A DNA stretch of 45,648 nt, counting the filler, from Jimgerdemannia flammicorona (lineage: Eukaryota): the NCBI GenBank assembly GCA_003990765.1. It is 2 parts of 2 records of this genome, joined end to end, with 100 filler letters (N's around TTAATTAATTAA, not from the genome) between each part and the next. Parts side by side here need not be neighbours in the genome. Positions count along the whole stretch, not along the records: positions 22,881 to 45,648 come from RBNJ01001207.1; 1 more part is not named here. One strand, written 5' to 3'. Both the position numbers and the translations under genes were made by a program. The notes below the pieces were generated by a model. It saw nothing but the letters and a program-made list of their open reading frames with translations. It had not been told where the DNA came from and did not search any database. Of the stretch, positions 7,750 to 45,648 are shown piece by piece. How positions within the stretch are numbered: the first letter of the stretch is position 1; every line of letters starts with the position of its first letter.

Positions 7750-8120
7750 TCAGCACCTACCTACATGGAGATATTAGAGGACAAAAGGCAAAGATCCTCA
7801 TAGACACAGGAGCAGCTATCTGTGTCATTGCCAAATGGTTCCTGGATACCCTCCAATGGCCCATTGATGGACCATCCAACCTCAGCATCATAGTAGCAGA
7901 TGGAGCCCAAACTCAACCCCTTGGAGAAGTATGAAACATCACCATCTCTCTTAGATACATTCAGTTCTCAATCCCCAAAGCTGTTGTCACCAAATCTGTC
8001 ACCTATAACATTATTCTTGGCACCAACTGGATGAAGGAAATGAATGCAGTTGTTGATATTGGCCAATAAGTACTCAAGTTTGATTACCGAGACAAGAAGT
8101 ACAGAGTTAAGGTGACCAGC
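7750..8120 (+). pseudogene. Retropepsin aspartic protease domain of pol
   Basis: AKILIDTGAAICVI (DTGA at 7803-7814) with downstream IILGTNW. Confidence 0.92.
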
Positions 8121-9429
8121 TATGAGCAATTAAAGAAGAAGAAGAAGGTCACTATTCAGGAAGAATATGCCAGTAATGAAGAATCTACCACAGAAGAAGA
8201 AGAAGAATCTGAAGATGGAAATGATCCCAGACTTAATCCCTGAATTAATCTGGTGGATGACAGACCAGAAGACAATGTGTGGGCAAAAAACACTATCCCC
8301 ATTACCATTGAAGCTATTGCAGGAGAAATTAAAGGATGTCTTATCTGTCTCAAAAGACACAAGTGTCCTGAGCATTCCTCCAAGATCATGGGAATAAGGA
8401 AATCGCCTGGCACAGCCTGCCCAGAGTACAGAAAGAAGAAGAAGAAATGCAGACATATTCCAGAGACACCTGCAACCAAAGCTGCAGACGTACAAGCCAT
8501 CTGGGGTCAAGAATTATCCGAGGAAGAAGAAACTCTGACCAAGAAGTTCCTGAACAGAAAGCACCTGAAGAAGAAGAGGTCCCCAAACTCATCCCCTGGG
8601 ACAACCCTTACTGGACACCACCTGAAGACAATGATCCTTAGAATACAGAAGAAGGACTCAGTATAATCACCATTATCTCCAAGAAAGAAACTCACCAAGA
8701 TAGGGCTTTTTGGCTAGGAAGATGTCTACACCAAATGGTCTTCCACTCTCCTCAAGACTACTGCTATCAGTGCCATTTACTAGACCAACAGGAGAGACAG
8801 AAACCCCAGAGACCAGAACCCCTGAACACACTTACACAGTCAACTACCTTCCAAGAAGTTACCACCAAGTTGCAAAGCTGATTCAGGGGACAAGGCTTCT
8901 TCACTTGAACAGAAATATATCCCTTGTCTACTCTTTCACCTATCTACAACCAAGATGGGCACTGATTCTCAAGACAATAAGAGATCAATAACCAGAAACA
9001 TCATTTTCAAGCAATGGGATATTGTAACCATAAAAAACACCTGGACTACTGAGACTGCAGGCATCAGAAGACATCTCAGTCATGATGTTACAGTTCACAC
9101 CTTGAAGAGAGGAGATAACCAAAGCCAGATCCAAAAAAGCCAGACCCGAAAAAGCCAGATCAAAAAGCCAGGAAAAAGAATCCTCAAGATTTATGATTTA
9201 GGAGAAGACATCCTAGCTCTTATCAGACATGCAACCTGCCAAGGATGGGCAGAAGATGCCACCAACTTCATGGAAGCCCTTGACCCTATAGGAAGAAGGG
9301 AAATCAACTATCTCTGAGACCCCTCTACTGAAGCCAGATGGCCACACCTCAACCTTAGAGCTTGGAGGCTCTTCACTAGTGGAGCTTCAGCCTTAGGAAA
9401 ACCTGAACTCAGCAAGGATATTGCCCAGA

Positions 9430-9835
9430 ATGCCCTGCTGCACCCCAAGGCCAAACCCCCAACCAAAGCCCACCCAGAGGATGTAGGATATGATCTTCAC
9501 AGCCTGGAGGACAAATCTATCAAGCCTGGAAAAACCTTCATGATCAGAACTGGATTAGCAATGCAGCTACCCCAAGGAGCTTACATCTAACTGACCTCAA
9601 GGTCTGGACTTGCCAGACAAGGAATAACCATAGAAGGAGGAACCATTGATCCAGGATATACAGGCAAAATCAAGGTTATCTTACACAATAGTAGTGCAGA
9701 ATGACACCAACTCATTAGAGGACAGAAGATTGCCCAAGCAGTCTTCATGAAAGTCAAGACTCCACAGTTACAAGAAGTCTCTAAACTAACTGAAGAAACA
9801 AGACAAGTCAAGAGATTTGGAAGTTCAGACAGGAA
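9430..9835 (+). pseudogene. dut: dUTPase domain embedded in pol between protease and RT
   Basis: All five trimeric dUTPase motifs in one frame, with two stops: DVGYDL, TSRSGLA, GGTIDPGYTG, GQKIAQAV, RQVKRFGSS. Confidence 0.93.
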
Positions 9836-10239
9836 GAAAGTACACCTCTTTCAAGTCAACTACCTCAAAAGGAATGTTCCCCAGCAAGTGTACCAGCAAC
9901 CTGTCAGACTGCATAAGAATCTTATCCTGGAGCCTGGAGAACAAACAACCTTCGAAATCTTTGCACCACCTGACCCCAGAAATCTTTTCTTTGAACCCAA
10001 GGAAGATATTCCCCATCTGGATATAGAGGGACACACATTCACCAACAAGATGAACCCAGTACACTCCTGAGCAACCAACCAAAGTTGGGAAACCATCATC
10101 TTGCTAAAAGGAACCATCATAGGACACCTGGTACCTTTTCTCAACCGAACTCATAGAGAAGTTTATGAACTAAACCTATCAGGAAATGGCAAAGGGTCCC
10201 AGAAAAAAGGAAAGGCCCCTCTGCGACCCAGGAGACAGT

Positions 10240-11200
10240 GAAGCATTGGAGAAGAATTGACACCTCAACAATAACAACAACTAGTAGAACTTCTCAATAA
10301 ATATCAAGATATCTTCACCACTGATTATGGCAACCTGCCATACAATCCATCATATCACTATAGCATAAATACAGGAAATGCAATACCCATCTATAGAATA
10401 CCCCATCACTTGAAAATATTTAAAAAGGAGTACATCCAAGAACTCTTAGACAATGGAGCCATCTGACCCTCTACCAGCCCCTGGGCTAGCCCTATACTTA
10501 TTGTACCAAAGAAAGGAGGATGGAGACTCTGTGTAGATTATAGGAAACTCAATTCAGTCACCAAAAAGAATGCCTATTCTTTGCCCAGAATCAATGATCT
10601 TTTGGATCAGTTATAAGATACCAGATACTTCAGTAGTATGGACCTCTTTACAGGATTCCATGAAATCCCCATGGACCCAAAAGACATTCAAAGACAGCCT
10701 TTCTTGCTCTAGGAAAACTGTTTGAATACCTCTGAATGCCCTTTGGACTTTGCAATGTACCCCTCACCTTTCAGAGGATGATGAATTCAGTCTATGCTCC
10801 CTTGATCCACTACTGCCTGATTGTATACATGGATGATTCTAACATCTATTCAGCAAATTTCGAAAAACACCTACACTACCTAAAGGAATACTTCAAGCTC
10901 ACCCACAAGAACCACTTGAGTCTGAATGCAAAAAAATGCTACTTTGGGAAACAGAAACTCAAATTCCTTAGATTTATAGTTTCAAAAGAAGGAACCCATA
11001 CAGACCCAAAGAAAACAGAAAAAATTAACAATTGGCTAGCACCCAAGACCCTGAAGGAAACATTATCATTCCTGATGCTAGTATCTTACTACAGAAGGTT
11101 CATCAAGGATTTTGCCCAAATTGCTGCTCCAATCCGAATTCTTCTCAAGAAAGGAGTGCCATTTAAGTAGACAGAATCACAAGAAACAGCCTTCAAAGAA
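10240..11200 (+). pseudogene. Reverse transcriptase domain (Ty3/Gypsy type)
   Basis: [37 protein letters not shown] (10826-10837), YYRRFIKDFA. Contains stops and a frameshift. Confidence 0.97.
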
Positions 11201-11212
11201 CTCAAGAACTGT

Positions 11213-11600
11213 ATGACTACAGCACCAATCCTTGTCCACCTCAATCTACAGAAGCCATTCATCTTGTATACAGATGCTTCTAAAGATGGCCTAGAAGCAG
11301 TTCTAGCCCAAGAAGAACCTGATCAACAACACCATGTAATAGCTTATATAAGTAGAACTACCAATCAGCAACAGATGAACTATGGTAGCACCAAACTAGA
11401 ATACCTTGCAGTCATATAGATGGTCACATTGTTCAAGCATTACCTTATCAGAAAAAAGTTCACCCTGATCACAGACTATACAGCCCTCAAATGGCTATTC
11501 AACTACAAGAAACCTACCTTATCCTTCAGAATTACAAAATCACCATCATCCACAAAGCAGGGAAAGCCCACAACAATGTTGATGTACTTTCCTGCCAACC
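11213..11600 (+). pseudogene. RNase H domain
   Basis: PFILYTDAS, NYGSTKLEYLAV, FTLITDYTALKWL. Confidence 0.93.
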
Positions 11601-11689
11601 CCAATGAACTAGAAGATGGGTGTCCCAAGGAACTACACCCTAAAGGAAGCTCCTCAGACCATCAAGGCACAAGAAGATCTCATCTGAAA

Positions 11690-12668
11690 AGAACATCAGA
11701 AAGCCCACCAAGGATAGACAAGTACAGAAGACAAGATTCAAAAACTGTATCAATACTGGCCCCACCTCAGGACCCAAGTCCAAGACATTATCCAGAAATG
11801 TGATACTTGCCAGAAGTACCAAGGAAAGAAGAACTATCAAGCCCCTTTACAACTGATTTCCCCACCAACTCACATCTTTCAGAGATGGAGAGTAGACATA
11901 ATAGGACCCCTGCCAATAACACTAAAACAAAACAGATATATTTTAGTATTTGTTGAACACTTGACCAAATAGCCTGAAGCATATCCCATGGAGATTGCAG
12001 ATGTCCTTTCCATCATTGGACATTTTCATGACCTTGCTCTCTGATATGAACCCTCTGAAGAACTCATCTCTGATAGAGGAACTGAATTTGTGAATAACAT
12101 AATCTCAAGTTATGCACAAATTCATAGGATCCACCTGAAATAAACCACCTCTTATCACCCTCAGACCAATGGAATGACCAAAAGAATGAACCAGACCATC
12201 AAGAAAGAACTTGTCTGAGTCAACCCTACTAATTGGGACCTCTGCTTACCTGAGATCTTATGGGAAATCCAAAATACCCCTGCTGCATCAATCAAACAAA
12301 AGTCCTTTGAAATGATGTTTGCTAAGAAGACTAGAACTGCTGACTATGAGAACCTCAGAAAGCTTCTTGAAAAAGGAGATCAGCTGTGAAATGAAGCTCA
12401 AACTCAGATTATCAAGACCTAGGAAAGACAAAAGAAGTATTATGACCAGAAATAGAGGGATCAGAAGATCAAGATTAGTAATCAAGTTCTAGTTTGGAGA
12501 AGCATGATAGAAGCAAACTTTGTCACTAAACTGGAACTAAAATAGGAAGGACTATATCTTGTATACAACATCAGAGGAACCAGCATCTATATAAGAAGCA
12601 TGAATAGACATGTCTTGAGAACTCCAGTTTATATCAATTACCTCAAGATATATCTGTACAAACCATGA
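11690..12668 (+). pseudogene. Integrase (HHCC, DDE core, GPY/F and SH3-like tail; no chromodomain)
   Basis: EHQKAHQG..YWPHLRTQVQDIIQKCDTC, VDIIGP, LISDRGTEF, TTSYHPQTNG, EGLY. Stop TGA at 12666-12668. Confidence 0.93.
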
Positions 12669-22616: not shown

Positions 22617-22671
<55 letters not shown>

Positions 22672-24695: not shown

Positions 24696-25930
24696 ATGTC
24701 GAATTCCTTGCTCTCCCAGTTCTCTTTGACCGGCAAGAACGCCGTAGGTAAGCAGTCTGGATCTAATATCTACTAAAACAATCTCCAACAAAACTTCTCT
24801 CTGAATACGCGCTCACATGAAGAACCCACGCGCCTTTTTATCAGTTACTGGAGGCGCCCGCGGCCTTGGTCTTGAAATGATGCGCGCCCTTGCCGAAGCG
24901 GGCGCCTCAGTCGCGTGCGTCGACATGCTGTTGGACGAAGGGCAGACGTCTACCGAAGCCATCCATAAGGAGTTTGGCGTGAAGGTCACAAATTGGAAGT
25001 GCGATGTCAGGATACCTGCGGAGGTGGGTATCACGCGTACGTGCAACATAGCATCCCATTTATTCCGTCGTTCACCGTGTCCCCTTGTCCGTCGAAATAC
25101 AGGTTACCGAAGTTTTTGGAAAAATCGCCAAGGAACATGGAAGCATTGACATCTGTGTGACATCTGCGGGGATTGCCCACATCGCCCCCGCGGAAGATTA
25201 CAAAGCCGAGGACTGGAAGAACGTGTTGGACATTAACCTCCATGGCACTTTCTTCTGTGCGCAGGCAGCGGGCAAGTGAGTATTCGCCCACTTCAGCCAT
25301 CAGCGATATGCTCTACCTCTTTCTCACAATTATTTATTGTTCTCCATCCATCATCTTCAAGGCACATGCTCGCCCAAGGCAAAGGTGGCAACATTATCCT
25401 TATCGCCTCCATCTGCGGCCAAATTGTGGCCCAACCACAGCCGCAGGCCGCCTACCAGGCGTCCAAAGGAGCCGTTATTATGCTCGCCAAACAACTGGCT
25501 GGCGAGTGGGCGCAGCATGGGATTCGTGTCAACAGTATGTCTCCGGGTAAGTAAAAGATAGGGATAGGTGACCGGAGGAAGTCCCAGTTTCACTGACATA
25601 TGTCATTCTATGGACTCTGACAAATAGGCTACATCGAGACAGCCCTCACACACGGCTTCCTTAATAGTGTAGAGAACGGAGCGGAGATCAAAGAGACGTG
25701 GGAACGCCTCACTCCTCTCAAGCGGATGGGGCAGCCTTCAGAAATTAAAGCGGCAGTTGTGTACCTGGCAAGTGGCGCGAGCTCGTATGTGACTGGTAAG
25801 TTGAATTTTGGGCTGAATTTTGACAAGGTCGGGGTTTCAACTGTTTCGTAACTTTGTTTCTATTTATATATACCCATCACGCGCTCTAGGATCTAACCTC
25901 GTTCTCGACGGTGGGTATACCGTGTGGTAA
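24696..25930 (+). CDS. Short-chain dehydrogenase/reductase (sorbose reductase / polyol dehydrogenase-like); exons 24696-24747, 24845-25023, 25103-25275, 25362-25546, 25628-25795, 25890-25930
   Basis: TGGARGLG cofactor motif, catalytic YQASK, VNSMSPGY, SYVTGSNLVLDGGYTVW. All introns are GT-AG and phase-compatible. Confidence 0.95.
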
Positions 25931-30676: not shown

Positions 30677-31577
30677 GGGACTTAGTGGGGTCGAATATCG
30701 GGGACCCGCCACAGTGTTCTCGTGAGCGAGGAAAAGGTAAGGAGGCATTGTATAAGTATCCAGTATATATTGCTGCGTCGCGGGCTGACTGGTGGTCGTC
30801 ATAATATGTCATATCCATCGGTCTTTCATGACTGTAAAATGGAATTATGAAAATGATATCTCTTTTGTATATCCCGACCTCATGGTTGTGGTTGTTCAAG
30901 TCGAATTACGACGCCGGTCCCGCCGCATGCTAGAAACCCTCCGGTTGAACGGAGGAAAAACTGGGCATTGCAAATATTTTAATTTACTTCGGTGGTTCCA
31001 GTTTACCTAGAGCGCTTGATCTTTACAGTGGAAAACGTTCCGAGCGGAAAAGTGAAAAATTACATGTCTAGGGGGCGTGAAATGTCGGTCCCGGGTTTCG
31101 AAATCTCTATTCTTCACTTTTGGTGTTGTTTCTCAACATGTATATACAAACAATTCGAAATCAAGTTCTTCCATGATGTATTGGGACATGCCGGAATGGA
31201 ATAATGGACAGTGGACGTGCCGATAAGGCGGTTTCCTAAGGCAAATTTAGTAGTAAGTTTGTGATTGTCTACACTGAACGGCAAAAGCACATGCAAATCT
31301 ATTACATCTTCCACTACTTTTTGTTTATTTTCTTTATAATATCTTTATCGGTCTTTGTCTCTTTAAATTTGTTTATTTTATTTTATTTATTATTTGTTTC
31401 ATTGGACTCACGCGAAAACACAAGTCATTGAATGGCGTGCAGACCCCCGTTCGGTACCGGGTGTGTCAACATGTAGGTTGGTGTTGTCAATGCTACTGGG
31501 AGAATTGCTGTGAGCAGCTATACACTCTACGCAGAGATAGATCTCGTCGAGTACCTTTAGCGCGTGCGGAAAATCCA

Positions 31578-34500
31578 TTAGGTTACTGTGGTATGTTTTG
31601 AGTCCGATGTGGCCTGTTGATCCTCGGTTCAGACACCGTCAACTCGCCTCCACCAACGCCTTTTCATAAATGCTTCCCAAGGTTCTGACATACCGGGATA
31701 TAAAGCTCCGTCAAGGTGGTGTTTTGCTTCAGAAACTCGCCTAGGGCATGTGCCCCATCGTCGCCAATCCTATTATTATCTTTAAAATAAACAGGGGAAG
31801 AGCGAACACGCAAAGATCGTGGGCTTCATTCCATCACACAGCTGCACACAATGCTTCACATGTTCTGACATACCTCCGAGATTAAGAATGGTCAAGGTCG
31901 TGTTCTACTTCAGAGGCTCGGCTAAGAAGCGTGCCCCCTTGTCGCCAATGCCATTATCTAGAATGAACAGGGGATGAGCGAACACACACAAATCATGAGC
32001 CTAATTCCATTACATAGCTGAACATAATGCTTCACACAGTTCTGATATACATTCGAGATTCAGAACGGCCAAGGTCGTGTTCCGCTTCAGAGACTTAGCT
32101 AGGGCGCGTGCCCCCTTGTCGCCAATGTCATTATCTAGAATGAACAGAGGATGAACGAACACGCATAGATCGTGAGCTCCACTCCATCACGCAGTTGCAC
32201 ACAATGCTTCACACAATTCTGACATACGTTTGAGATTCAACTCGGTCAAGGTCGTGTTCTGTTTCAGAGACTCGGCTAGGGCGCGTCCCCCCTCGCCGCC
32301 AATTTTATTTACTTTAAAATAAAGAGGGGATGAGTGAACATGCACAGATCGTGAGTTTCATCCATTACGCAGCCGCATACAATGCTTCACATAGTTCTGA
32401 CATACTTCCGATATTCAGCTTGGTCAAGGTCATGCTCTGCTTTAGAAACTCGGCTAAGGCGTGTGCTCCCTCGTCGCCAATGTTATTATCTTTAAAATAA
32501 ACAGGGAATGAGCGAACACGCACAGATCGTGAGCTTCATTCAATCATGCAGCTGCACACAATGTTCACAGAGTTCTGACATACCTGTGAGATTTAGCTTG
32601 GCCATGGTCGTGTTCTGCTTCAGAGACTCGGCTAGGGCGCGTGTCCCCTTGCCGAGAATTCTATTACCTTTGAAATGAACAGGAGATGAACGGACATATA
32701 CAGATCGTGAGCTTCATTAGCTGCACACAATGTTTCACATAGTTCTGACATACTTCCGAGATTCAGTTTGGTCAAAGTTGTGTTCTGCTCCAGAGACTCG
32801 GCAAGGGAGCGTGCCCCCTCGTCGCCAATGCTGTTTACTTCAAAATAAACAGGGAATGAGCGAACACGCACAGATCGTGAACTCCATTCCATCACGTAGC
32901 TGCACACAATGCTTCACACAGTTCTGACATACATTCGAGACTCAGCCCGGCCAAGGGCGTGTTCTGCTTCAGAAACTCGGCTAGGGCGCGTGCCCCTTCT
33001 CCGCCAATTCTATTATCTTTAAAATGAACAGAGGATGAGCGGAAACCTAGAGATCATGAGCTTCAATCCATCACGTAGCTGCAAATGCTTCAAGATACTG
33101 CGGAAATTAGGCTCGGTCAAGATCGTATTCTGCTTCAGAAACTCGGCTAGGGTGCGTGCCCCCTCGTCGCTGATGTGGTTGTCTGAAGAATTGGAACTGT
33201 GTAGATTGGAATCTTGATTCCATCACATAGGTACACAATGCTTCCTACAGTTCTGACATACCTCTAAGATTCAGCAAGGTCAACGTTGTGTTCTGCTTTA
33301 GAGACGCAGCTAGGGCGCCTGCCCCCTCCATGCCGATGCTGTTCCCTGAGGATAAACAAGTGATATATAGTGAGCCTGATTCCATCACGCAGCTGCACAC
33401 GCCTTACAATTCTGTCAAACCTTGGAGATTCAGCTCGGTCAACATCGTATGCTGCTTCAGAAATATGGCTACGACGAGCGCCCCTTTGTAGTCGATGCGC
33501 TTATCTGATGATGAGCAAGGAATTGATCGAACACCCACGAATTGTGAGCTTTATTTCTTCACACAATGCGTCACATGATTATGACATACTTTCGAGATTC
33601 AGCTTCGTCAAGGTCGTGTTCTGCTTCAGAACCAAAATAGGGCGCGTGCCCCACCGTCACCAATGCTATTATCTTTAAAATGAACAGGGAATGAGCGAAC
33701 ACGCACATGTCGTGAGGTTACAACTGCATGCAAGTTTCACACAGTTAGGACAGACTATTGAGATTCAGCTCAGCCAAGGTCGTGTTCTTTTTCAGAGACT
33801 CGGCAAGGGCGCGTGCCGCTTCGTCCCCAATGCTATTCACTTTAAAATCAACAGGGAATGAGCGAACACGCACAGATCGTGAGCGCCATTCCATCACGCA
33901 GCTGCACACAATTCTTCACACATTTCGGACATACTGTAAAGATTCAGGTCGGTCAAGGTCGTGTTCTGCTCCAGAGACTCGGTTAGGGCGCGTGCCACCT
34001 TGTCGCCAATGTCATTCTCTTTAAAATGAACAGGATATGAGCGACAACGCACAGATCGTGAGTTTCATTCCATAAGGCAGCTGAACACAATGCTTCACAT
34101 AGCTTTGACATACGTTAGAGATTCAGTTTGGCCAAGGTCGTGTTCTGCCTCAAAGGCTCGGCTAGGGCGCGTGCCCCCTCGTCGCCAATGCTATTACCGT
34201 TAAAATTAACAGGAGATGAGCGAACACGCACAGATGGTGAGCTTCATTCCATCACGAAGCTGCACACAATGCTTCACGCAGTTCTGACATACAATTGAGA
34301 TTCAGCACGGTCAAGGTTGTGTTCTGCTTCAGAGATTTCGCTAGAGTGCGTGCCCCCTTGTCGCCAATGTCATTCTCTTTAAAATGAACAGGGGATGAAG
34401 GAAAACGCACAGGTCGTGAGTTTCATTACATCAGGCTGAACACAATGCTTTACACACTTTTGACATACTTTCGAGATTCAGCTCGGTCAAGGTCGTGCTC

Positions 34501-36481
34501 TGCTTCAGAGACTCAGCTATGGCGTGCTCCCTCGTCGCCGATTCTATTGACTGAAGGACAGGATACGAGAACTTGATCTAATCACGTATCTGCGCACAAT
34601 GCTTCGCATAGTTCTGACATACTTGCCAGGTTCATCTCGGTCAAGGTTATGTTCTGCCTTAGATACTCGGCTAAGGTGTGCACCCCTCTGTCGCCAATGC
34701 TGTTCACTGAAGACGAATAGAAGCTTAATTCCATCATGCAACTGCACGCAATCCTTCACACAGTTCTGCGATTCAACTTAGTAAAAGTCGTGTTCTGCTG
34801 CAGAAACTCGGCTAGGATGCATTCCCCTTCGTGGCTGATGCTGTTCCCTGAAAATGAACAGATTTTCAATCCGTGAGCTTGATTCCATCGTGCAGCTGCA
34901 CACAATGCTTCATACAGTTCTGACATACCTTCAAGATTCAGCTCGGTAAAAATGGTGTATTGCTTCAGAGACCTGGCTAGGGCATGCGCCCCCTTGTAGC
35001 GGATGTGTTTGCCTGAGGATGAACAGAGAATTGAATAAACACCCTCAAATTGTGAGCTCGATTTCTTCATGCAAATGCACACAACGCTTCAGATAGTTAT
35101 GAGATACTTTTGAGATTAAGCTTGGTCAAGCTCGTGCTCTGCTTCAGAGATTCGGCTAGGGCGCGTGCCCCCTCGTCGCCAATGATTTTCCCTGAATATT
35201 AATAGAAGATGTGTAGATAGTGAGCTAGATTCTATTACACTGCTGCACACAACATTTCACACAGTAATAATATACCGCAGAAATCCAGTCCGATTAAGGG
35301 GGTGTTCTGCTTGAAAGACGCGGCTAGGTCGCGCGCCTCCCGGTGGCTGATGTTGTTGTCTGAAGAACAACAACGGAATGAGTGAACACGAAAAATCGTG
35401 ATTTCATTTCTTCATTCTGCTTCAGAGACTCGGCTAGAGCGCCAGCCCCCTCGTCGCCGATGCTGTTCCCTGAAGACGAACAGGAGATGTATATATTGTG
35501 AGGTTGATTCATCACAGAGCTGCACAAAGCCGCACACAGTTCTGATATACCACCGAGATTAAGCTTGGTCAAGGTCGTGTTCTGTTTCAAAGACTCGGCT
35601 AGGACTCGGGCTCCCACATCACCGATACTGTTACCTGAAGTTGAAGAGGAGGTGGTATGAGTAAACGCAAGCATTTCCATCACGCAGCAGCAAACAATCG
35701 TTCACAGTTTTGACATACAGGAGATTCAGCTTGGTCAAAGTTGTGTTTTGCTTCAGAGATTCGGCTAAAGTGCGGGCCAACAGAATACCGATGCTATTTG
35801 CTGGATATGAACAGGTAATTTGAGTATGCTCAGATCACAAACTTGCTACTACCCACTTCGCAAACAAAATTAACATACAGCTGAGATTGATCTTGGTCAG
35901 CGTTATGCTTCAGAAATTCGACGAGAACACGCGCTGCTCGATCGTCGATGCTCTTTCCTGAAGATGTACAGTCCGGAATGAGTAAGTTCAATTTCCTACA
36001 AATAATAGTTCGCATATTTCTGGCATACTAGAGAGCTTCAACTCATGCGAGATCGTGTTCTGCTTCAGAAATTCGGCTAGGATCCTGGCCTTCTCGTCGC
36101 CGATCTCACTTTCTGAATGGAGCACGAACAAACCATGAGATATGTAACCTGTATATAATGATTCAAACGAAGCTGACATACCGGTCGTGTTCTGCTTCAG
36201 AGGCTAATCGAGAGCGCAGGGCTCTTCAGTGCCGAAAAGTTTCTCTAAAATAGAAGAATGATTAATAAGCATACACTGACAATTAACTCTAAGCCAAATG
36301 TAGTACGCCAACTCCGTCACCCGCTATCATTACCTTCAATTCTACCATGGGTCGAACAACACGGACAATGAGAAAGAACGCAAAAACCCGGTGTTTAGCA
36401 AATGTGAATATGATTAGCCGGCTACGTGCCTCATGTCGCTACATACCTCGATTCGGCTACTGTCCGAGAGTGACCCGCCAT
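31578..36481 (-). CDS. RI-like (LRR_6/NLRC3-type) leucine-rich-repeat gene with one LRR per exon, ~28 cassette exons; partly defective or alternatively spliced
   Basis: Each exon encodes xNxIGDEGARALAESLKQNTTLTxLNLx and is mostly bounded by AG and GTATGT-like sites. Putative exon 1 at 36481-36447, microexon at 36341-36334, and an end at 31664 (read-through) or 31578 (last exon). Confidence 0.85.
31694..36244 (-). repeat. Tandem array of ~28 exon+intron units, period mostly ~150-180 bp
   Basis: The introns are homologous as well as the exons (GTATGTCAGAACTGTGTGAAGCATTGTGTGCAGCTG...CTCACGATCTGTGCGTGTTCGCTCAT...TTTTAAAG). Confidence 0.97.
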
Positions 36482-36564
36482 ATGTGAATGCTGTTCTGTG
36501 ACTTTCTTGAGTGTTCCTGCGTGTAGAATTTGAACTCCAGCCGAGGAAGTGGTGAATACGGAAA

Positions 36565-37816
36565 TATCAGTACTAGTTTGAAGAAGCATAATTGAAATAA
36601 ACTTTGCTGCCAAACTAGAGTCCAAATGGGAAGGACCTTATCTTGTATATAATATCAGAGGAACAAGTGTCTATATAAGAAATATGGATGGATGCACTCT
36701 GAGGACTCCAGTATATATCAATTACCTCAAGATATATCTACCTTCTATACAATGATCCAGAGGATTGACCAGCACCTCCAGACCCTTATCCTCAGTTCTC
36801 TTCAAGCTCTGTCAATTCTTCTATCTCAGTTTAGAGCAACTGTTGGCAACTGCTCCCAATTGATCCAGGTTCATCAAGAGAACCTCGCCATAGCCCAGTG
36901 ACTTCTAGAAATCTATTAGCTACAGGTATACTATACTATTGGAGAACAACTATAAGACCTCTCAACCTCTAAGTATATCTATATCAGATATATCACAGAC
37001 CTCATCCAAAGGTACTATTGTAGCAAACAGACTCTATACCATCTATAAGTAAAATACAGGAGCATTAATCTATGCTCAATTTTACCTTAGAGATATCTGA
37101 GAGATGACTCCTACTACTTATCAGAGTATCATCCATCATATTGAGATACTATTTCCTAAAGAAAAAAAAGTATCCTTAGAATAGAGTAGCTCAAAACTAA
37201 AGAAGATAATAGAATGAGATCAGATGCTGAAAATGCCTACCTATATAGTAATCAGATAGCAACTATAACTGTATAAAATATTCCAGTAATTTGAATAAAT
37301 AAATCTCAGTCTGAAATTTGAAATCAAAAAGCAAAAAAATAAGTCTACCTATTATACTTTGAGAGATATATCTATCAAAAGCTACTTGATTCAGAAAGAA
37401 TTACAATACTTAGAAGAAATATCTACTCTAAAGTTACTTTTAGGAGATTGTGAGCTTGATATCTAATTTACACTTCAGTCTACTTTCCAATACAAAGAAA
37501 AGAAGATCTGATTTAGTATACTTATCAGACTAAGCCTGAAGATCTACAATTTGAAGAACTAGAAGTCTACTGCCATCTGCCATTCAAAAAGTCTGTCATT
37601 TTTGGAAGAATGTGAGAAATCTACTGAATTCACCATGTTATACTGATCTCACCTAATTAGGAAACTTACTAAAATCATCTATATTATGTAAATAAGAACT
37701 TGTACTAAAAACCATTGAATATTTTGTTACTTTTTAACAAAGTAACTGAGGGCTCAAGCCAATCTACATAGTAGCCCCAATCTTGTAATTTGCCTCTATT
37801 GAGCTGGTATGTTACA
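36565..37816 (+). mobile_element. Third Gypsy fragment: integrase tail, ORF3 (36752-~37240) and internally deleted 3' LTR ending GTTACA
   Basis: KWEGPYLVYNIRG..YLKIY and MIQRIDQHLQTLILSS. LTR motifs at 37245-37816 are heavily C>T/G>A mutated. Confidence 0.92.
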
Positions 37817-39416: not shown

Positions 39417-40115
39417 ATGGCAACTATCGAAAAAAGTTACTACTTCAGGATTCGCATGGATGGCGAAGAGCTCTCTCACTTTTTTGAAATATCCAGCCAT
39501 GAAAACGAACTCACTTTCGAGAAACTTACCATGGCCATCATTGAACAATTCGAGGTTCGTACACACCCTGTTCCCTATGTGTTCCCTATGAGCACCCCCT
39601 CCCCCCCCCTTGCCTACTCGACTCCTCCTTTCCTCTTTTACTTCCTTTCGGTCTTCTATATGAAGTTTAATATACTCCTCTGATGATTAAATTTCCTCGA
39701 TATCCAGGACGGCTTCACCTTGAACGATTACATTATCACCTGCAGAAACCTCGCCGAGGACGCAAAGAGGGAAGTGCTCAAGAGCGACGTGGTCCTGAAA
39801 CGCGCGCTCAAGCATATGACAGGGGATGAGGCATTGGAGATGATGCTGATCAAGAAACCTACAAAGAAGTCCGATAAGGTTATCAAGATTGGTACGCGAT
39901 CCTCTCATTCGATTCTCGCTCCAAGTTCACCTATTGTTTACCAGGATTCTTTTTTTTTTTTTTTGGTCCCACAGAAAATCCCTCAACCCCCAAACCTGTT
40001 TCAACACCGTCCGCCCGGTCAACCCACCCTTTGCATGCCGCCCTAGGTGCGCAAATCATCGCCTCGCCATCAACGATACAGACGCCCAAAAGGAGACCGC
40101 AACGGGCGATATCGG

Positions 40116-40159
<44 letters not shown>

Positions 40160-41722
40160 GAGGGACTACTACGTACCCCCACGAGACAGACCACAACAAT
40201 GGAGTGGACACCAAAGGACGACGAGGACGAGGGGCCGGCTCACCTCCCGACAACCCAAACACCGATAAGGGCGACACAGACACCCACGGCCCAGTCACTG
40301 CCGGTGTCGCGGAACTCTACAAAGCCGAACACCGCAAGGAGGCAGCTGTTTTCGGCGGATTCGAGAGGCAAAGACAGCAAAGGGTCGAAGCCAACCGGGC
40401 ATATGCCGACAAATCCCGCACTTCCAAAGCTGCTCTTATCAGCAAGGCAGGCCTCAAAGACGCTCACTTCTGCAAGACACCCATCCCCCGCAACATTAAT
40501 ATCGGATGACGAGGAAGAAGATGGATCACGCCCAGTCAAGTCGTTCATGACGTCACCAACCGAGCCGTCACGCGTTATCGGCGAGGGCGCCCAGGCCGTC
40601 TTGGGTATGGGGCTGCCATTATCGCTGCTCGAATCTCAAATATCCTCTCATCAGAACCTCCTCTCCGCGGAGTCTCCAAGCCTTGTACGACGCAGCTCCC
40701 GGTTTGCAATGCGTGACCCGGTTCCGCCGAATCACGAGACGGATGAGGAGGCGGAGTATGTGGTGGCCACGGTGGAGCATCGGTCCATGGAATTGAGACA
40801 GCCACCCTTATCCTCGGTCGAGGAGAACTTGGATCAGCCCCACATCACAGAATCTCCGCGCACTCCTCTTCGGCGCAGCAAACGGCCTCAAACTATGATG
40901 TCGCCCAATTATGACGTCGTGGCAATGATGAAGCGCGTGGCAGGTGATGAGGAAGGGGTGGATGTCCGCAGTACGAAGCGAAGCCGTACGCGGAGCCATG
41001 CCGGCGGTAAGAGTAATGGTGGCAGTAACGGACTCGACCGGAACGCGCCTAGCTCAAAGCACAAAATCCCGCTCCTAACGAAGCTCGGATTCAGGTTCAC
41101 CCCCGGCGATCACTACTACGCTTACAAGTGTAGCCACGTCCTAAAAGCCCTCCGCGGGGACAAGCGCCAGATTTGGAAGAATTTCAATAAGAATGCTGCA
41201 CTCGAGGGAAGGATACCATACATGCTCAGTAGTCACGAGTGGCATCCGTTCCTCCCGTACAAGCTCACACTCTCCTACAGCCAGTACCTCCACTGGGCCA
41301 AAGAAGTTCGCAAATTTGGCCGGCTTGTGAATCCTACCGCCAACCTTACCTTTGTCCCAGGTACAAAAGCCATCCGCATGTTCATTAATGTCACCGCCAG
41401 GGGCAGCACATGGTGGATCGACCTTGGGTGGGTTGCGCTGGGAAAACCTATTGCGAAGAAGTGGGACGACGTTCCCGAGTATTGCATTGAGAAGCGTGTG
41501 AAGAGCGAGTTGATGGAGTTTCGAATTTGCGTACCTGAACTGCTGATGGATGTGCCGTTGGTAAGGGTAGAGGTTGGTACGAAGGCAGGAGGAAGAGAGC
41601 CGATCGTGTGTGAGGGGCAGTGCCGGCGGGACGGGGGGGGAATGGAGGTTTCGGAGGCGGAGGCGGAGGCGGAGGCGGAGTCGGATATTTTGAGGTGGTT
41701 CACATTTTGCGATTGTTTGTAG
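39417..41722 (+). CDS. Hypothetical ~665-aa protein with N-terminal PB1/ubiquitin-like domain, disordered acidic S/T/P-rich middle and aromatic C-terminal domain; exons 39417-39554, 39708-39891, 40047-41722
   Basis: Two GT-AG introns join the ORFs in frame with a long 563-codon ORF. Domain calls are from pattern only. Confidence 0.75.
40118..40156 (+). repeat. (GAC)13 microsatellite encoding poly-Asp
   Basis: Seen directly in the sequence. Confidence 0.98.
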
Positions 41723-44325
41723 GGGAACGGCGATGAAGAGGCGGGAGGATGAGGAGATAGGAAAGCAAGGGGTACTAGCGCTAAAGTTTGGAAGTGGTGG
41801 AGTGTGGGACTATGGTGAGAGGAGAATAGGGAGAAATCAGGAGATGGGGTGAAGTACAGGACTTGTGATGGAATGTAATTCTGTAGGTTTTTGTCGTAAG
41901 TGAACCGTTGGGCCGTGCATCTGCATGAACGTTTGATGGTTGGCAGATTCGATTGTATTACATTTTTATTTCTGAGATTAAAATACAAATTGAGAGAAGG
42001 AAGTATAAGTAAGCACTACAATTTCAATGGCGAGTGATTGGGAATATCACAGCACTACAAATGGGTGCCCTCGCCTAAAGTGAGGCAAATTCAAAAAGGA
42101 TCGCCTTCTCGTTGAGCAAAGCGGGCATAGCCAAACATGGTTATCTCAACACGTTCCAAGATTTGCAAATAAAAAATAATAACTACAAGGAGGAAGCCTT
42201 ACAAGAATTTTCCAGGGACTCTTGGATCTGTTACGTTTGGAGAGATTATTTTGTCCGTCCTTATTCCCTTCCTCAATGGCGTCTGCACTATTCTCGTCGT
42301 TGAGCCGTTTCGAGCCCTGGTTTTTTCACTCGCATTCAGGCGTCCCATGATGTCTTGGTGTGTCGCTTCCGTGGCTCGGTTGGGCAATTCCCACCCGCCA
42401 ACCATGTCAGACAGATGGAATCCAGCCCACAAATAAATTTTCTGTCCTCGGGCACTCAGGAAACTCGAATGCATAGACCAAAAGGGACCTGTATAATAAT
42501 ATATTACAGGATTTAGGTAAATCTAATATCCAATAACTGAAGTGACAACAAATCCATTGTGCACGAGGAAACGTCCGAGCAGCGTACTAATACCTCCTTA
42601 CCTCCTTGCTAAAGAACTGAAATAAATAATCCAGTGTGTACGCCTAGGTGTCAATCCGCCAGATTTTAGTCACAAAATATATCGCACCCGAAATACCTGA
42701 GTCTACGTGAGCTCTTCATTGTGTTCATTGTAGCTCTGCCATCCTAGCTTTTGGTTGGCTTTCCAAGAGCATCCATCCACCGGTGCACTGCACGCTGTCG
42801 GCGAATTTCTTTACCTACTCAAGGTCATTATATTGACTAAAAACGTTTCTTATCCGCGGTGCATCTCTGATTTTTTTTTTTTTTTTTTTGGCATCACGAT
42901 CAGTTCCGGTTCCACATATATCCTGCATAGAATTTGTGACCGTAATATTGGATGTAAAATCGCCTCTGACGTGTGATCGGATATCATACATCAATGGAAC
43001 CACTTAAATAAATTTTGCATTGATGTGATGGCATGCAGCATTGGCACTTGTAGTGATAGACTGATACTTTCATTGAGGTATCGGCCAAGTGTCGAAACAA
43101 GTATATCAATCTCATGACCAAGTGTTCAATGCGCAAGCATACTACAACCTCTATAAGAGCGTGATGACCTCACAGGGTGATTGAAGTTTAGAAGAAGCTT
43201 AGTCCGGTGGTAACTGACGATGGAAGCCGTCAACAAAACGTCCGGGGAGAGAGCATCGGCCATTTTGCGAATTATATAAAGATGTATAAACAATCCGCGT
43301 AAAAATAAATGGTGCCCTATGGCGTCGACGTCGGCCTATTGGCCGTAACTCCAGAGCAAACAGACGAAAATCAACGACAAAGTCTGTAGCTGATTTCAAT
43401 TTACCTGCTTTAATGTCATCAGGAGCGGTAATCGCTTCGTCCACGACGCGAGTCGTGACAATGATGCGTGTCAAGCCTTTCGCATTCGCGTGCTCCGATT
43501 GAACAGTCATATTTATGTGCTATTCATGTCATGTATGTCGTTGCAATTCAATTAACCAAACAAGTGCCATGAATTCGTGAAGAGGTATAGCTCCCTATAA
43601 CAATTTTCATAAAGTGTCCCTTCGCAGATTAAAAGGTTGTGGGGAATGTGATGTTGAATTATGAATAAGGTAGGCGGGTGTTAGTCATTTGGAACCATAA
43701 ATACTCCCAAGGACCCTAATTTACATGCAAAGAGGCCATTTATTGAAAAGGAAAAGAGAGATCCGTTAAATAACATAAATGTGGATACGAGCTTGTCCGA
43801 CAACGCACATACATCTTGCATCTTTCATTGGGTGGAAAGCAAATGTACTGGAGCCAAGAAAACGATATTGATTAACAAATTTTTTGCACTTATTGCATAT
43901 ATATACAAAAAACAAAATAAAATAAAATAAAACAATGACTGATGCCAACGTCTGCCGGTACTTGCTAGTGATTACTGCCAGAAGAATATCACATTTCATT
44001 GGTGGCTTTTGCAGACACCTCTTAACTATTTGCATTGAAAGCGTAACTCAACCTCCTCCCAGTCAGGGAGTACCGAGAAGCAAATATCTGGGACACCGGC
44101 TTGATAGCGCGCCCTGTGGCAAACATAGAATGAAAACCGGTTTGCGATAGATTTAACACAAATATGTAATTTCTCGTACGAAAGTAGATTGGACACGGTC
44201 AGAGCATCGGTACTCTTGATAATTAATTATGTGTACTACGGCTGTGACTGCATCCCCTGCTGAAGCCACAGTTGAAGTTCACGTGGTTTGGAGGATACGC
44301 CAAGCACTCTATACCCTTTACCATT

Positions 44326-45597
44326 ATGCACCTCAGCAAACTCCCCACCGGGCCACACAGGCGCCTGCTAGCCACCTTACTCGCCTTCGTCCTCTTTGCC
44401 AACATAGTCTTCATCCTCTACCCAACGTCGCCAACCTCATCCGCAGCACCTGCTGTCAAACCCGAAGCACCTGCCGTCAAACCCGAAGCACCTGCCGTCA
44501 AACTAATTGGCAACAACCCCTTCCAAGCCGAGTATGACAACAACGACCCCCAGTCCTGCAATGGTCTCCATCCTATTTTGCGCGCAGACCTCAACGAGAC
44601 TATCCCACGACACTACGCGCTTAAAGGACCGAAAACCCGTGTCGTGACGATTTTCTTGTGGCGCCAGCAGACCTACGCAATGAGTAATATTTCGTGGCCC
44701 GAACTCGCAAAGGATCTATGCCCATATCCGCCAGAGCTGGTCGCCTACTTCAAAGCGTATTGGGACCGGCATGTGAACGATGACTACCCGAGATGGCCCA
44801 ATGGGTGGGCGCCTTGCTGGCTATGGAAGATCAACTCCGAATCAGACAATCTGGTAAGGACTTGTGATGGCACTGGGACGCGCTTCAAACTGACAACAAA
44901 CTATACCGAGTTTCGGGATGCCGATATTATACACATGGACTATGTGTTTTACCTTGGAGCGTACGAGCACGTGTTATTTTGGAACGTCGCTTTGTTACCC
45001 CCGAAGCTAGGGGGCCACATATGGTGGGTGAGTAATGAGCGTCCAGTTTCACTCATCATCGTTAAATGCAATTCCTCACTGTTGTCCTGCCGCCAAGTCT
45101 AACTAACCATTTATCCAAATCACAACCAGCTCAACTACGGACGGGAATCCGTTGCATATTACCCATACGTCCGCATGGAATCCTTCCTCCGCAACTTTGA
45201 CTTCACCATCGGCGCCCCTGCTAGTCTTTACGACCTCTCGCACCCGCTCGAACCCATAACTTCAAAACGCCTTAAATTGATGATCGCCGCGCCTCCGCCG
45301 ACCATTCGCTCGGACGGCATCCAGCTCGCGTGGATGGTATCCAACTGTTCGCCTAGGAACCAGAGGAACGAGGTAATGAAAGGATTGATGGAGGAGATGG
45401 AAGTCCACTCGTTTGGCCGGTGCATGCATAATATGGACTTCCCGGAGGAAATTAAGTTGAAGTTTAAGCTGACCGAGGAGGTGTCGAATAACCAATATTG
45501 GGGGCCGTGGCAGGATATCAAGCGGGAAATATTTGCCGGTTATCCGTTTGTCTTCGTGCCAGAGAATTCGAATTGCGAGGGTTATGTCACCGAAAAG
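44326..45597 (+). CDS. GT10 alpha-1,3/4-fucosyltransferase, type II membrane protein, 3'-partial; exons 44326-45027 and 45130-45597
   Basis: N-terminal TM anchor, LAWMVSNC, VHSFGRC, and the GT10 motif YPFVFVPENSNCEGYVTEK followed by a GT donor at the contig end. Confidence 0.92.
44444..44503 (+). repeat. 21-bp in-frame repeat, ~3 copies (APAVKPE), in the fucosyltransferase stem
   Basis: Seen directly in the sequence. Confidence 0.95.
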
Positions 45598-45613
45598 GTA
45601 TGTTGTCAGTGTG

Positions 45614-45648
<35 letters not shown>

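What the first reader, a model, noticed from the sequence alone, without database searches (positions are those of the whole stretch)
31874..36112. A variable LRR residue is encoded by a codon split across each splice junction
Seen: the intron falls in LxxLxLx^xN. Exon ends vary (GGA-G, GAA-T, AAA-C, GGA-A, ACA-G) and exon starts vary (AT, TA, GT, AC, GG, AG, TG, TC), while the helix part (ARALAESLKQNTT) is comparatively constant. Known: the x positions around the LRR beta-strand form the concave ligand-binding face. Inference: each new exon pairing creates a new junction amino acid, adding junctional diversity, and these positions may be under diversifying selection.
Basis: partly seen in the sequence, partly recalled or inferred. 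Interest (0 to 1): 0.78.

Follow-up and report, generated by a model that had tools for sequence, protein, structure and literature searches.

The report
Decaying fungal LRR exon array
A fungal genome carries 28 tandem copies of a small exon-plus-intron module for a leucine-rich repeat, whose surface residues, including one split by the intron, changed much faster than the introns, yet about a third of the copies are now broken.

Summary
On the minus strand, 36244-31592, lie 28 tandem modules, each an 84-nt RI-type LRR exon plus a 70-100-nt GT..AG intron. The intron is phase 1 and splits the codon for position 8 of LxxLxLxxNxL. In the 13 youngest modules this codon has pairwise difference 0.69, against 0.19 for introns and 0.15 for framework exon sites. 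Positions 3, 7 and 10 are also raised (0.48-0.55). The finding's own refutation test therefore fails, and past diversity-favouring selection is supported.

The "junctional diversity" mechanism is not supported. Position 8 is equally hypervariable in relatives, including an intron-less bacterial protein. One 28-aa LRR per frame-preserving exon, with the border at a fixed place in the beta-strand, is already described for human NOD/NLRC genes. Re-pairing all exons would add only 0.4 bit at that residue and give 3% stops.

Ten of 28 modules carry stops, frameshifts or lost splice sites, and no N-terminal domain lies in the window. A neighbouring gene is 99% identical to Jimgerdemannia flammicorona (Endogonales, Mucoromycota).

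Best reading: a recently expanded, formerly selected LRR gene segment that is now decaying. No RNA data could be obtained. Interest is moderate to low.

The parts
31592..36244 (-). Whole array: 28 tandem modules (U01-U28), each an RI-type LRR exon piece plus an intron
   Evidence: Anchor motif scan and alignment. The nhmmer profile finds only these modules in the window. Pfam LRR_6 hits on read-through ORFs.
31669..34552 (-). Young, most homogeneous part of the array (period 179; class-A modules U12-U17 and U21-U28, interrupted by older U18-U20)
   Evidence: TRF: 16.6 copies, 73% matches. Introns are 76-93% identical between 12 class-A modules (51-70% for U17) and exons 71-87%.
32051..33504 (-). 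Longest run of intact modules: nine 84-nt exons U18-U26 with GT..AG introns and open frame
32754..32837 (-). Example exon (U22): TA|AAC AGC ... CTC GGA|A. It encodes N-S-I-G-D-E-G-A-R-S-L-A-E-S-L-E-Q-N-T-T-L-T-K-L-N-L-G plus two thirds and one third of the split codons.
32668..32753 (-). Example intron (after U22), GTATGT...AAAG, 86 nt, phase 1
   Evidence: A neighbouring intron shows no special RNA fold (z=+0.87), and Rfam gives no match.
36182..36244 (-). U01: truncated exon piece (63 nt) with an in-frame TAG
35879..35957 (-). U03: 79-nt exon piece (5 nt missing, frameshift)
35719..35800 (-). U04: 82-nt exon piece (frameshift)
35360..35469 (-). U06: a deletion of about 67 nt removed the exon's 3' end, the donor site and the 5' part of the intron
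   Evidence: nhmmer matches model positions 3-55 and 123-175 only.
34707..34847 (-). U10: a deletion of about 11 nt removed position 7, the split base and the GTATGT donor
34469..34550 (-). U12: 82-nt exon piece (2-nt deletion), which runs into TGA
34114..34199 (-). U14: acceptor AG changed to CG (34199-34198) and TAA at LRR position 7 (34117-34115)
33590..33672 (-). U17: 83-nt exon piece (1-nt deletion within a cluster of substitutions, frameshift)
31874..31957 (-). U27: 84-nt exon with CAG changed to TAG in frame (31907-31905)
31694..31779 (-). U28: last module, 86 nt (3-nt insertion, 1 nt short at the end). It leaves phase 1; read through its donor it meets TGA after 10 codons.
   Evidence: by direct reading of the sequence.

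Best explanation
This is a tandemly amplified segment of a ribonuclease-inhibitor-type (Pfam LRR_6) leucine-rich-repeat gene in an Endogonales fungus, Jimgerdemannia flammicorona or a very close relative.

The amplified unit is a whole exon-plus-intron module of about 179 bp. Each exon encodes one 28-residue repeat. Each intron is phase 1 and sits at the C-terminal end of the beta-strand, so the codon for LRR position 8 is split. Unequal crossing-over or slippage between modules expanded the array (inferred).

While the modules were spliced and translated, selection favoured amino-acid differences at positions 3, 7, 8 and 10. These form the strand and the strand-to-helix loop of the concave face. 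The framework and the introns stayed alike (shown as a pattern; selection is the inference from it).

The split codon is the most variable because it is position 8, not because it is split. The array has since lost integrity: 10 of 28 modules are disabled and no N-terminal domain is nearby. As it stands it is most likely a pseudogene or an orphaned remnant (inferred, with no expression data).
For: Anatomy:
- There are 28 modules, 20 of them with gapless 84-nt exons, with GT..AG borders and phase 1-1.
- Pfam LRR_6 scores 27.1 bits against a cut-off of 23.4 on ORF 35327-35701.

Organism:
- The GT10 ORF at 44248-45099 is 99% identical to J. flammicorona BC938DRAFT_471693.
- Paralogues with MYND plus LRR_6 exist in that species (P0053 and P0153).

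Recent amplification:
- Introns are 76-93% identical between 12 class-A modules (51-70% for U17), more alike than the exons at 71-87%.

Excess change at surface codons:
- Pairwise difference is 0.69 for the split codon, 0.52 for c27, 0.55 for c23 and 0.48 for c02. Introns give 0.187 and framework sites 0.153.
- Parsimony steps per column are 6.0 for the split codon against 1.21 for introns.
- Monte Carlo and Mann-Whitney tests are significant.
- Hypervariable dN is 0.79 against an intron distance of 0.19.

Evidence that the modules were once a working, spliced gene:
- Framework dN/dS is 0.51.
- In the older modules, third positions (0.378) exceed first and second positions (0.24-0.26).
- GTATGT is kept in 11 of 13 class-A introns and AG in 12 of 13, although the intron interior differs from consensus at 0.143 per site. 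My binomial arithmetic gives P about 0.004 for the four splice bases.

Position 8 is intrinsically variable:
- It is among the six most variable repeat positions in 11 of 12 relatives, including an intron-less bacterial one.

Decay:
- Ten of 28 modules are broken.
- No NACHT, kinase or MYND match occurs anywhere in the window.
- No catalogued protein holds U18's distinctive exon (3 candidates, 0 hits).
Against: - No expression data could be obtained, so the pseudogene status is an inference.
- Small indels in U04, U12 and U17 could be assembly errors.
- All exons are phase 1-1, so defective ones could in principle be skipped. Nine consecutive modules (U18-U26) are intact.
- Within the young modules the framework shows no clear codon-position signature (positions 1, 2, 3 give 0.173, 0.122, 0.163). 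Purifying selection on them is therefore weak or the numbers are too small.
- Depletion of stop codons at the hypervariable codons is not significant (expected 4.24, observed 1 of 85, P=0.076).
- The intron tree used for the step counts favours low intron counts by construction.
Confidence: 0.55

Rival explanations
1. The locus is still a working gene. Defective modules are skipped by the spliceosome, or the small indels are assembly errors. The product would be an LRR-only protein, or the C-terminal part of a protein whose 5' exons were not recognised.
For: - Eighteen of 28 modules are intact, with a run of nine.
- All exons are frame-preserving, the precondition for exon skipping stressed for human NLRs (PMC6642158, passages).
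- U14, which carries TAA, has also lost its acceptor AG and so would be skipped anyway.
- Splice signals are better kept than the intron interior.
Against: - Several lesions are not the kind made by sequencing error: substitution stops in U01, U14 and U27, deletions of 5 to about 67 nt in U03, U06 and U10, and AG to CG.
- Skipping U14 would join U13's final T to U15's initial AG and make TAG (read).
- U06 and U10 have lost their donors, so their exon pieces would run on into intron.
- No start exon or N-terminal domain was found within 3.5 kb upstream.
- No catalogued protein matches U18's exon.
Confidence: 0.25
2. The split codon is an adaptation: new exon pairings, by alternative splicing or by recombination in the introns, create new residues at the junction, and this junctional diversity is what selection acts on.
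For: - It is arithmetically true that each tandem duplication or intronic crossover makes one new codon from an old last base and an old first dinucleotide.
- Modules with the same exon start carry different junction residues: A|AG gives K and C|AG gives Q; C|AT gives H and T|AT gives Y.
- The split codon is the most variable codon of all.
Against: - Position 8 is just as variable in relatives, including an intron-less bacterial protein.
- The neighbouring unsplit codons c27, c23 and c02 are also hypervariable.
- The gain from free re-pairing is 0.4 bit, with 20 of 625 pairings giving stops.
- The same intron layout is a general feature of NOD/NLRC-type LRR exons (PMC6642158).
- There is no evidence for alternative pairing.
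Confidence: 0.05
3. No positive selection took place. The modules are old and saturated at unconstrained surface codons. The framework and introns look young only because gene conversion keeps homogenising them, or because the hypervariable columns are mutational hot spots.
For: - Concerted evolution of repeats is well documented in fungal repeat genes (PMC1805685, passages).
- The class-A modules give a star-like tree.
- G:C to A:T transitions dominate the changes, 94 of 202.
Against: - The hypervariable codons flank the 95-nt conserved intron on both sides and are interleaved with conserved codons on a scale of 3 to 15 nt. Conversion tracts could not spare them without selection against homogenisation.
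- Intron bases next to the same splice sites are the most conserved, so there is no local hot spot.
- A CpA/TpG bias of the RIP kind is not clear (6 and 19 events).
Confidence: 0.1

Closest known systems
NOD/NLRC-type RI-class LRR exon modules of animal NLR genes (Hoss et al. 2019, PMC6642158; passages read)
   Same: One 28-residue RI-class LRR per exon. Exons are strictly frame-preserving. The exon border always falls at the same place in the beta-strand. The consensus is LxxLxLxx(N/C)xL...
   Different: Here the host is an early-diverging fungus. No NACHT domain is nearby. The introns are short (70-100 nt) and more alike than the exons. A third of the modules are broken. Whether the intron sits at exactly the same residue as in human genes could not be tested.
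Highly internally conserved WD40/ANK/TPR repeats of fungal NLRs (Podospora NWD/het-d/het-e family; Paoletti et al. 2007, PMC1805685; Dyrka et al. 2014, PMC4986451; passages read)
   Same: These are tandem repeats kept alike, with a few codons per repeat on the binding surface under positive diversifying selection. They show repeat shuffling and repeat-number change, and the family includes pseudogene members.
   Different: Those repeats are WD, ANK or TPR, lie within one exon, and are attached to a NOD domain. Dyrka et al. found no LRR motifs in fungal NLRs. Here the repeat is an LRR, each repeat carries its own intron, and mean amino-acid identity between the 11 gapless class-A exons (a pairwise figure over exons within the class-A subset, not their per-gene measure) is 67%, below the 85% they used.
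Tetrahymena arrays of exactly 90-bp LRR exons with phase-2 introns (Xiong et al. 2019, PMC6564038; abstract and passages read)
   Same: Tandem arrays of equal-length LRR exons with one uniform intron phase, read as clonal amplification of exon-plus-intron units in fast-evolving, lineage-specific genes.
   Different: Exons are 90 bp with phase 2 in a ciliate, with tens of thousands of exons genome-wide. Here they are 84 bp with phase 1, and only a single locus was seen.
LRR_6 proteins of Mucoromycota and other early fungi: J. flammicorona MYND-LRR (P0053/P0153), Mortierella alpina P0004, Gonapodya kinase-Sel1-LRR P0090. Kinase-LRR genes of Glomeromycotina and Mortierellaceae are noted in PMC10507103 (passages read).
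   Same: The same repeat type and near-consensus (NxIGDxGAxALAExLKxNTTLxxLxL). Up to 64% identity to the window's read-through ORF.
   Different: Those proteins have N-terminal MYND or kinase domains and open frames. The window's array has neither.

Membership tests
RI-type (ribonuclease-inhibitor-like) LRR, Pfam LRR_6 | 28-29-residue repeat matching LxxLxLxx(N/C)xLxxxgoxxLxxoLxzxxxx | tested here: met
   Over 20 gapless exons: L17 T13 x L18 N17 L17 x [split] N16 x I20 G15 D13 E10 G16 A17 R15 A11 L19 A19 E14 S12 L19 K16 Q17 N16 T18 T13. The consensus string is quoted from PMC6642158.
RI-type (ribonuclease-inhibitor-like) LRR, Pfam LRR_6 | Pfam LRR_6 profile hit above the gathering score | tested here: met
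   ORF 35327-35701(-) scores 27.1 bits against a cut-off of 23.4, E=3.4e-6. ORF 32635-32913(-) scores 19.9 bits, below the cut-off. The paralogue P0053 matches ribonuclease inhibitor, NOD2 and NLRP chains in the PDB.
Modular NOD/NLRC-type LRR exon architecture | One LRR per exon of 84 nt, frame-preserving, with the border at a fixed place in the beta-strand | tested here: met
   Twenty of 28 exon pieces are gapless 84 nt, all phase 1-1. The border lies between LRR positions 7 and 8, at the end of the strand in the P0053 model. Identity of the intron site with the human genes was not tested, as no animal genome is at hand.
NLR (NACHT/NB-ARC plus repeats) | A nucleotide-binding NACHT or NB-ARC domain encoded upstream of the repeats | tested here: not met
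   No such Pfam hit in 148 stop-to-stop ORFs of 75 aa or more across the window. tblastn with a NACHT-LRR relative (P0005) hits only its LRR part. A domain beyond the window, or in short exons, is not excluded.
Fungal 'highly internally conserved' repeat arrays under diversifying selection (Paoletti 2007; Dyrka 2014) | Repeats more than 85% alike internally | tested here: not met
   The 11 gapless class-A exons average 67% amino-acid identity (maximum 85%) and 78% nucleotide identity. This is a pairwise figure within the class-A subset, not the per-gene measure those authors used. Introns reach 93%.
Fungal 'highly internally conserved' repeat arrays under diversifying selection (Paoletti 2007; Dyrka 2014) | A few codons per repeat, on the interaction surface, evolving faster than neutral | tested here: met
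   Hypervariable codons give dN 0.79 against an intron distance of 0.19 and a framework dS of 0.26. The comparison is between paralogous repeats only, not between alleles or orthologues.
J. flammicorona MYND-LRR gene family (P0053/P0153) | MYND zinc finger N-terminal to the LRRs | tested here: not met
   tblastn of P0153 against the window aligns only its residues 450-695, the LRR part, inside 31691-36197.
Intact protein-coding gene | An open frame through consecutive exons with usable splice sites | tested here: not met
   Ten of 28 modules are broken: U01, U03, U04, U06, U10, U12, U14, U17, U27 and U28. The longest intact run is U18-U26.

The most novel reading that the evidence does not exclude
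The array, defective modules included, may be a standing store of LRR cassettes that exchanges modules with expressed LRR_6 paralogues (MYND-LRR, kinase-LRR) by recombination in the near-identical introns. [quoted passage not shown] Because the introns are phase 1, every such exchange would also mint a new residue at the most exposed position.
Probability: 0.06. Interest if true: 0.75.

Novelty: new variant of a known kind. Interest (0 to 1): 0.36.

Why it matters
Surveys of fungal NLR-like receptors report WD, ANK and TPR repeats with hypervariable surface positions, and no LRRs (PMC4986451, passages read). This locus shows the same evolutionary signature in a fungus on an RI-type LRR built from animal-style one-repeat exons: framework and even introns stay alike while a few surface codons race ahead.

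If intact, expressed relatives exist in Endogonales, they would be candidates for rapidly diversifying recognition proteins in a mycorrhizal lineage that also hosts endobacteria. The shared exon layout would also bear on how old the modular LRR exon is.

The specific idea of junction-coded diversity adds little. The locus itself is probably dead, which limits its direct importance.

Tried and rejected
- **Whole genome:** none is held for this window, so no census of paralogous arrays was possible.
- **Sequencing runs:** none was listed for 30800-37200 and no RNA holder was listed.
- **Protein word searches:**
  - U18's ORF with 'longer' gave 3 candidates and 0 hits.
  - U22's ORF with 'near' gave no candidate.
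- **Protein atlas:** only generic LRR_6 clusters.
- **Earlier notes of this scan:** nothing by place, sequence or words.
- **N-terminal domain:** a three-frame reading of 39800-36100 on the minus strand, Pfam on 148 ORFs, and tblastn with four relatives found no domain other than the LRRs.
- **RIP-like mutation bias:** transitions 136 against transversions 66. C to T in CpA occurred 6 times and G to A in TpG 19 times. This is not clear either way.
- **Stop-codon depletion at hypervariable codons:** expected 4.24, observed 1 of 85, P=0.076, not significant.
- **Function for the conserved introns:** the only Rfam match at E up to 1 was a chance-level one (19.9 bits against a gathering score of 100, on the other strand). 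One intron folds no better than shuffles (z=+0.87).
- **Reading the array with all broken exons skipped:** rejected, because joining U13 to U15 makes TAG.
- **Structure of the window's own product:** not predicted, because a spliced sequence would have had to be joined by hand. A natural paralogue (P0053) was folded instead, without an alignment. Its N-terminal 221 residues are unreliable (pLDDT below 50), and only the LRR part was used.
- **Literature searches:** Jimgerdemannia with leucine-rich repeat (1 irrelevant paper), fungal NLR with LRR and Mucoromycota (3 papers), and Endogonaceae/Jimgerdemannia/LRR/MYND found no description of such an array. Subscription journals are not covered. The Endogonaceae genome paper (Chang et al. 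2019) was seen only as a reference entry.


Full report
**What is there**

The finding lies on the minus strand. Read that way, 36244-31592 is a head-to-tail array of 28 modules, U01-U28. Each module is an exon-like piece followed by an intron-like piece of 69-102 nt with a GTATGT-type donor and a YAG or AAAG acceptor.
- TRF finds period 179 and 16.6 copies for the most homogeneous part, 31669-34552.
- A profile built from the modules finds these 28 and nothing else in the 45.6-kb window.
- Twenty exon pieces are gapless 84 nt.
- Each exon starts with two bases and ends with one base of a split codon, so every intron is phase 1 and every exon is symmetric and frame-preserving.
- Translated, each exon reads x-N-x-I-G-D-E-G-A-R-A-L-A-E-S-L-K-Q-N-T-T-L-T-x-L-N-L-x-x. 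This is the ribonuclease-inhibitor (RI) class consensus LxxLxLxxNxL followed by a helix.
- Pfam LRR_6 is hit above its cut-off on a read-through ORF.
- The intron falls between LRR positions 7 and 8, after the first base of codon 8.

Its coordinates run from the first base of U02 to the last base of U27.

**Whose genome**

No genome is held for the window. An ORF at 44248-45099 (+), a GT10 fucosyltransferase, is 99% identical to a Jimgerdemannia flammicorona protein and 63% identical to one from an Endogone species. The window is therefore from that species or a very close relative (Endogonales, Mucoromycota).

The surroundings are:
- a degraded Ty3/gypsy element with a dUTPase at 7.5-12 kb;
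- a short-chain dehydrogenase gene at 24.8-25.9 kb;
- a 614-codon ORF without Pfam match at 39.9-41.7 kb.

**Is the variation more than chance?**

I aligned the 13 youngest modules (class A: U12-U17 and U21-U27), exon and intron together.

| Sites | Mean pairwise difference |
|---|---|
| 94 intron columns | 0.187 |
| 69 framework exon columns | 0.153 |
| Split codon (three bases 0.74, 0.64, 0.68) | 0.688 |
| Position 7 (c27) | 0.52 |
| Position 3 (c23) | 0.55 |
| Position 10 (c02) | 0.48 |
| E/K of GDEG (c06) | 0.36 |

Further tests agree:
- The highest mean of any three adjacent intron columns is 0.49.
- In 200000 draws of three random intron columns, none reached 0.688. For c27, c23 and c02 the fractions were 0.0013, 0.0004 and 0.004.
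- Twelve hypervariable columns against 94 intron columns give Mann-Whitney P=1.4e-7.
- On a tree built from the introns alone, the split codon needs 6.0 steps per column, against 1.21 for introns and 1.04 for the framework. That tree favours the introns by construction.
- By Nei-Gojobori the framework has dN 0.134 and dS 0.262. The four unsplit hypervariable codons have dN 0.79, and the intron interior has a Jukes-Cantor distance of 0.19.
- Between 12 class-A modules the introns (76-93% identical; 51-70% for U17) are more alike than the exons (71-87%).

It is clearly not met.

**Where these residues sit**

I could not fold the window's own product without joining exons by hand. I therefore folded a natural paralogue from the same species, P0053 (MYND finger plus LRR_6, 457 aa). 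Its LRR part has pLDDT 62-91, and the rest is unreliable.

In five repeats of the model the strand covers LRR positions 3 to 7 or 8. The loop covers 8 to 12, and the helix runs from 12 or 13 to about 24. The hypervariable positions 3 and 7 therefore lie in the strand, 8 at its end and 10 in the following loop. The constant ARALAESLKQN part is the helix. The intron sits at the C-terminal end of the strand.

**Why the split codon is not special**

I extracted the repeats of 13 related proteins returned by the library search. Twelve had five or more regular repeats.
- Position 8 is among the six most variable positions in 11 of these 12, and among the top three in 10. The exception is P0005.
- One of the eleven, P0023, comes from a Legionellaceae genome and so has no spliceosomal introns. 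Its two most variable positions are 7 and 8.

The variability therefore belongs to the position in the fold.

The layout is also not new. For human NLRs, Hoss et al. report three things (PMC6642158, passages read):
- most NOD and NLRC genes encode one 28-residue LRR per exon;
- the LRR exons are strictly frame-preserving;
- the exon border is always at the same place in the beta-sheet.

Tetrahymena has arrays of 90-bp LRR exons with uniform phase-2 introns (PMC6564038).

It is true that a duplication or an intronic crossover creates one new codon from an old last base and an old first dinucleotide. Modules with the same exon start do carry different junction residues (K and Q; H and Y). However, pairing every tail with every head (625 pairings) raises the entropy of that residue only from 3.59 to 3.98 bits, and gives 20 stops. 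I found no way to test for alternative pairing, because no sequencing run could be listed.

**Is it a working gene?**

Ten of the 28 modules are disabled:

| Module | Defect |
|---|---|
| U01 | 63 nt, with TAG |
| U03 | 79 nt |
| U04 | 82 nt |
| U06 | about 67 nt deleted, including the donor |
| U10 | about 11 nt deleted, including the donor |
| U12 | 82 nt, running into TGA |
| U14 | acceptor CG and TAA |
| U17 | 83 nt |
| U27 | CAG changed to TAG |
| U28 | 86 nt, leaving phase 1 |

- U23 keeps its length but has lost the IGDEGA motif (ILGKGT).
- The longest intact run is U18-U26.
- Skipping every broken exon does not rescue the frame, because joining U13 to U15 makes TAG.
- Upstream on the minus strand, 36.3-39.8 kb is partly AT-rich. 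It has no recognisable coding exon of a NACHT, kinase or MYND domain. tblastn with four relatives hits only their LRR parts, all inside the array.
- No catalogued protein contains U18's distinctive exon. That search is a weak test.

**Signs that it was a working gene until recently**

- Framework dN/dS is 0.51 in the young modules.
- Between the nine older class-B modules compared (U02, U05, U07, U08, U09, U11, U18-U20), framework third positions (0.378) are more different than first (0.238) and second (0.261) positions.
- GTATGT is exact in 11 of 13 class-A introns, and the acceptor AG is kept in 12 of 13. The intron interior differs from its consensus at 0.143 per site. Two apparent acceptor misses in that call are artefacts of my unit boundaries.
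- With that rate, all four splice bases should survive in about 54% of introns. Twelve of 13 gives a binomial P of about 0.004 (my arithmetic).
- Depletion of stops at the hypervariable codons points the same way but is not significant (expected 4.24, observed 1 of 85, P=0.076).

**Best explanation and rivals**

The best explanation (0.55) is a recently amplified exon-plus-intron LRR array. It was spliced and translated, and was under diversity-favouring selection at four or five surface codons. It is now decaying, or is an orphaned remnant.

The rivals are:
- **Still functional (0.25).** Defective exons would be skipped, or some lesions would be assembly errors.
- **No selection (0.10).** The modules would be old, with surface codons saturated and everything else homogenised by gene conversion or shaped by hot spots. 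This fits poorly. Hypervariable and conserved codons are interleaved on a scale of 3-15 nt, on both sides of a conserved intron.

**Comparison with known systems**

In function and evolution the closest fungal analogue is the highly internally conserved WD, ANK or TPR repeats of NLR-like genes. There, four positions per repeat on the binding surface are under positive selection, and repeats are shuffled between expressed and pseudogene loci (PMC1805685, PMC4986451; passages read). Those surveys found no LRR motifs in fungal NLRs.

This locus is not shown to be an NLR, since no NOD domain was found. It also does not reach their 85% internal conservation: pairwise amino-acid identity among the 11 gapless class-A exons averages 67%, and that figure is not their per-gene measure.

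In gene architecture it matches the animal NOD/NLRC exon module.

By sequence it belongs with the LRR_6 proteins of early fungi: MYND-LRR in the same species, a 1279-aa Mortierella protein, and kinase-Sel1-LRR in Gonapodya. Kinase-LRR genes of Mucoromycota are mentioned in PMC10507103.

I rate it a new variant of a known kind and of moderate to low interest.

Noticed in passing
window 7497-11969 (+): Degraded Ty3/gypsy-type retroelement. The aspartyl protease, dUTPase (in two pieces), reverse transcriptase, RNase H and integrase zinc-finger hits are spread over several frames and interrupted by stops.
   Followed up: partly
window 24805-25848 (+): Short-chain dehydrogenase/reductase gene in at least four ORF pieces (adh_short, adh_short_C2), apparently intact with short introns.
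   Followed up: no
window 44248-45648 (+): GT10 fucosyltransferase gene, 99% identical to J. flammicorona BC938DRAFT_471693. It contains a 21-nt tandem repeat (3 copies, 44441-44503) encoding APAVKPE repeats. The window ends in a run of T.
   Followed up: partly
window 39878-41719 (+): A 614-codon open frame with no Pfam match. It contains a perfect (CGA)14 run at 40117-40158, which reads as poly-Asp in this frame.
   Followed up: no
window 36441-36497 (-): By eye, one more very degenerate half-module: it resembles the start of an LRR exon and ends in GTATGT, upstream of U01. It is not significant with the module profile.
   Followed up: partly
window 31669-36244 (-): There are two kinds of module. 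Older ones have a pyrimidine-rich ...CTTCAG acceptor and AAC for the conserved Asn (U02-U12, U18-U20). Younger ones have a weak ...TTTTAAAG acceptor and AAT (U13-U17, U21-U28). The introns before U26 and U27 share a derived ...TTCTAG acceptor. Exons U13, U15, U26 and U27 share an NDIGDKGAR-type start, which hints at two-module duplications.
   Followed up: partly
window 32584-32667 (-): U23 keeps 84 nt and an open frame but reads ILGKGT instead of IGDEGA. It looks like a compensated pair of small indels, so it may be structurally damaged although it was counted as intact.
   Followed up: no
window 22620-22668: A run of 49 T. The region 2-6 kb is also very AT-rich (GC 0.26-0.34) and holds short tandem repeats at 4403-4524.
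   Followed up: no
LRR position 5 (codon c25) in the array: Position 5 is a conserved Asn here (17 of 20 exons). In most relatives it is one of the most variable positions. This is unexplained.
   Followed up: no
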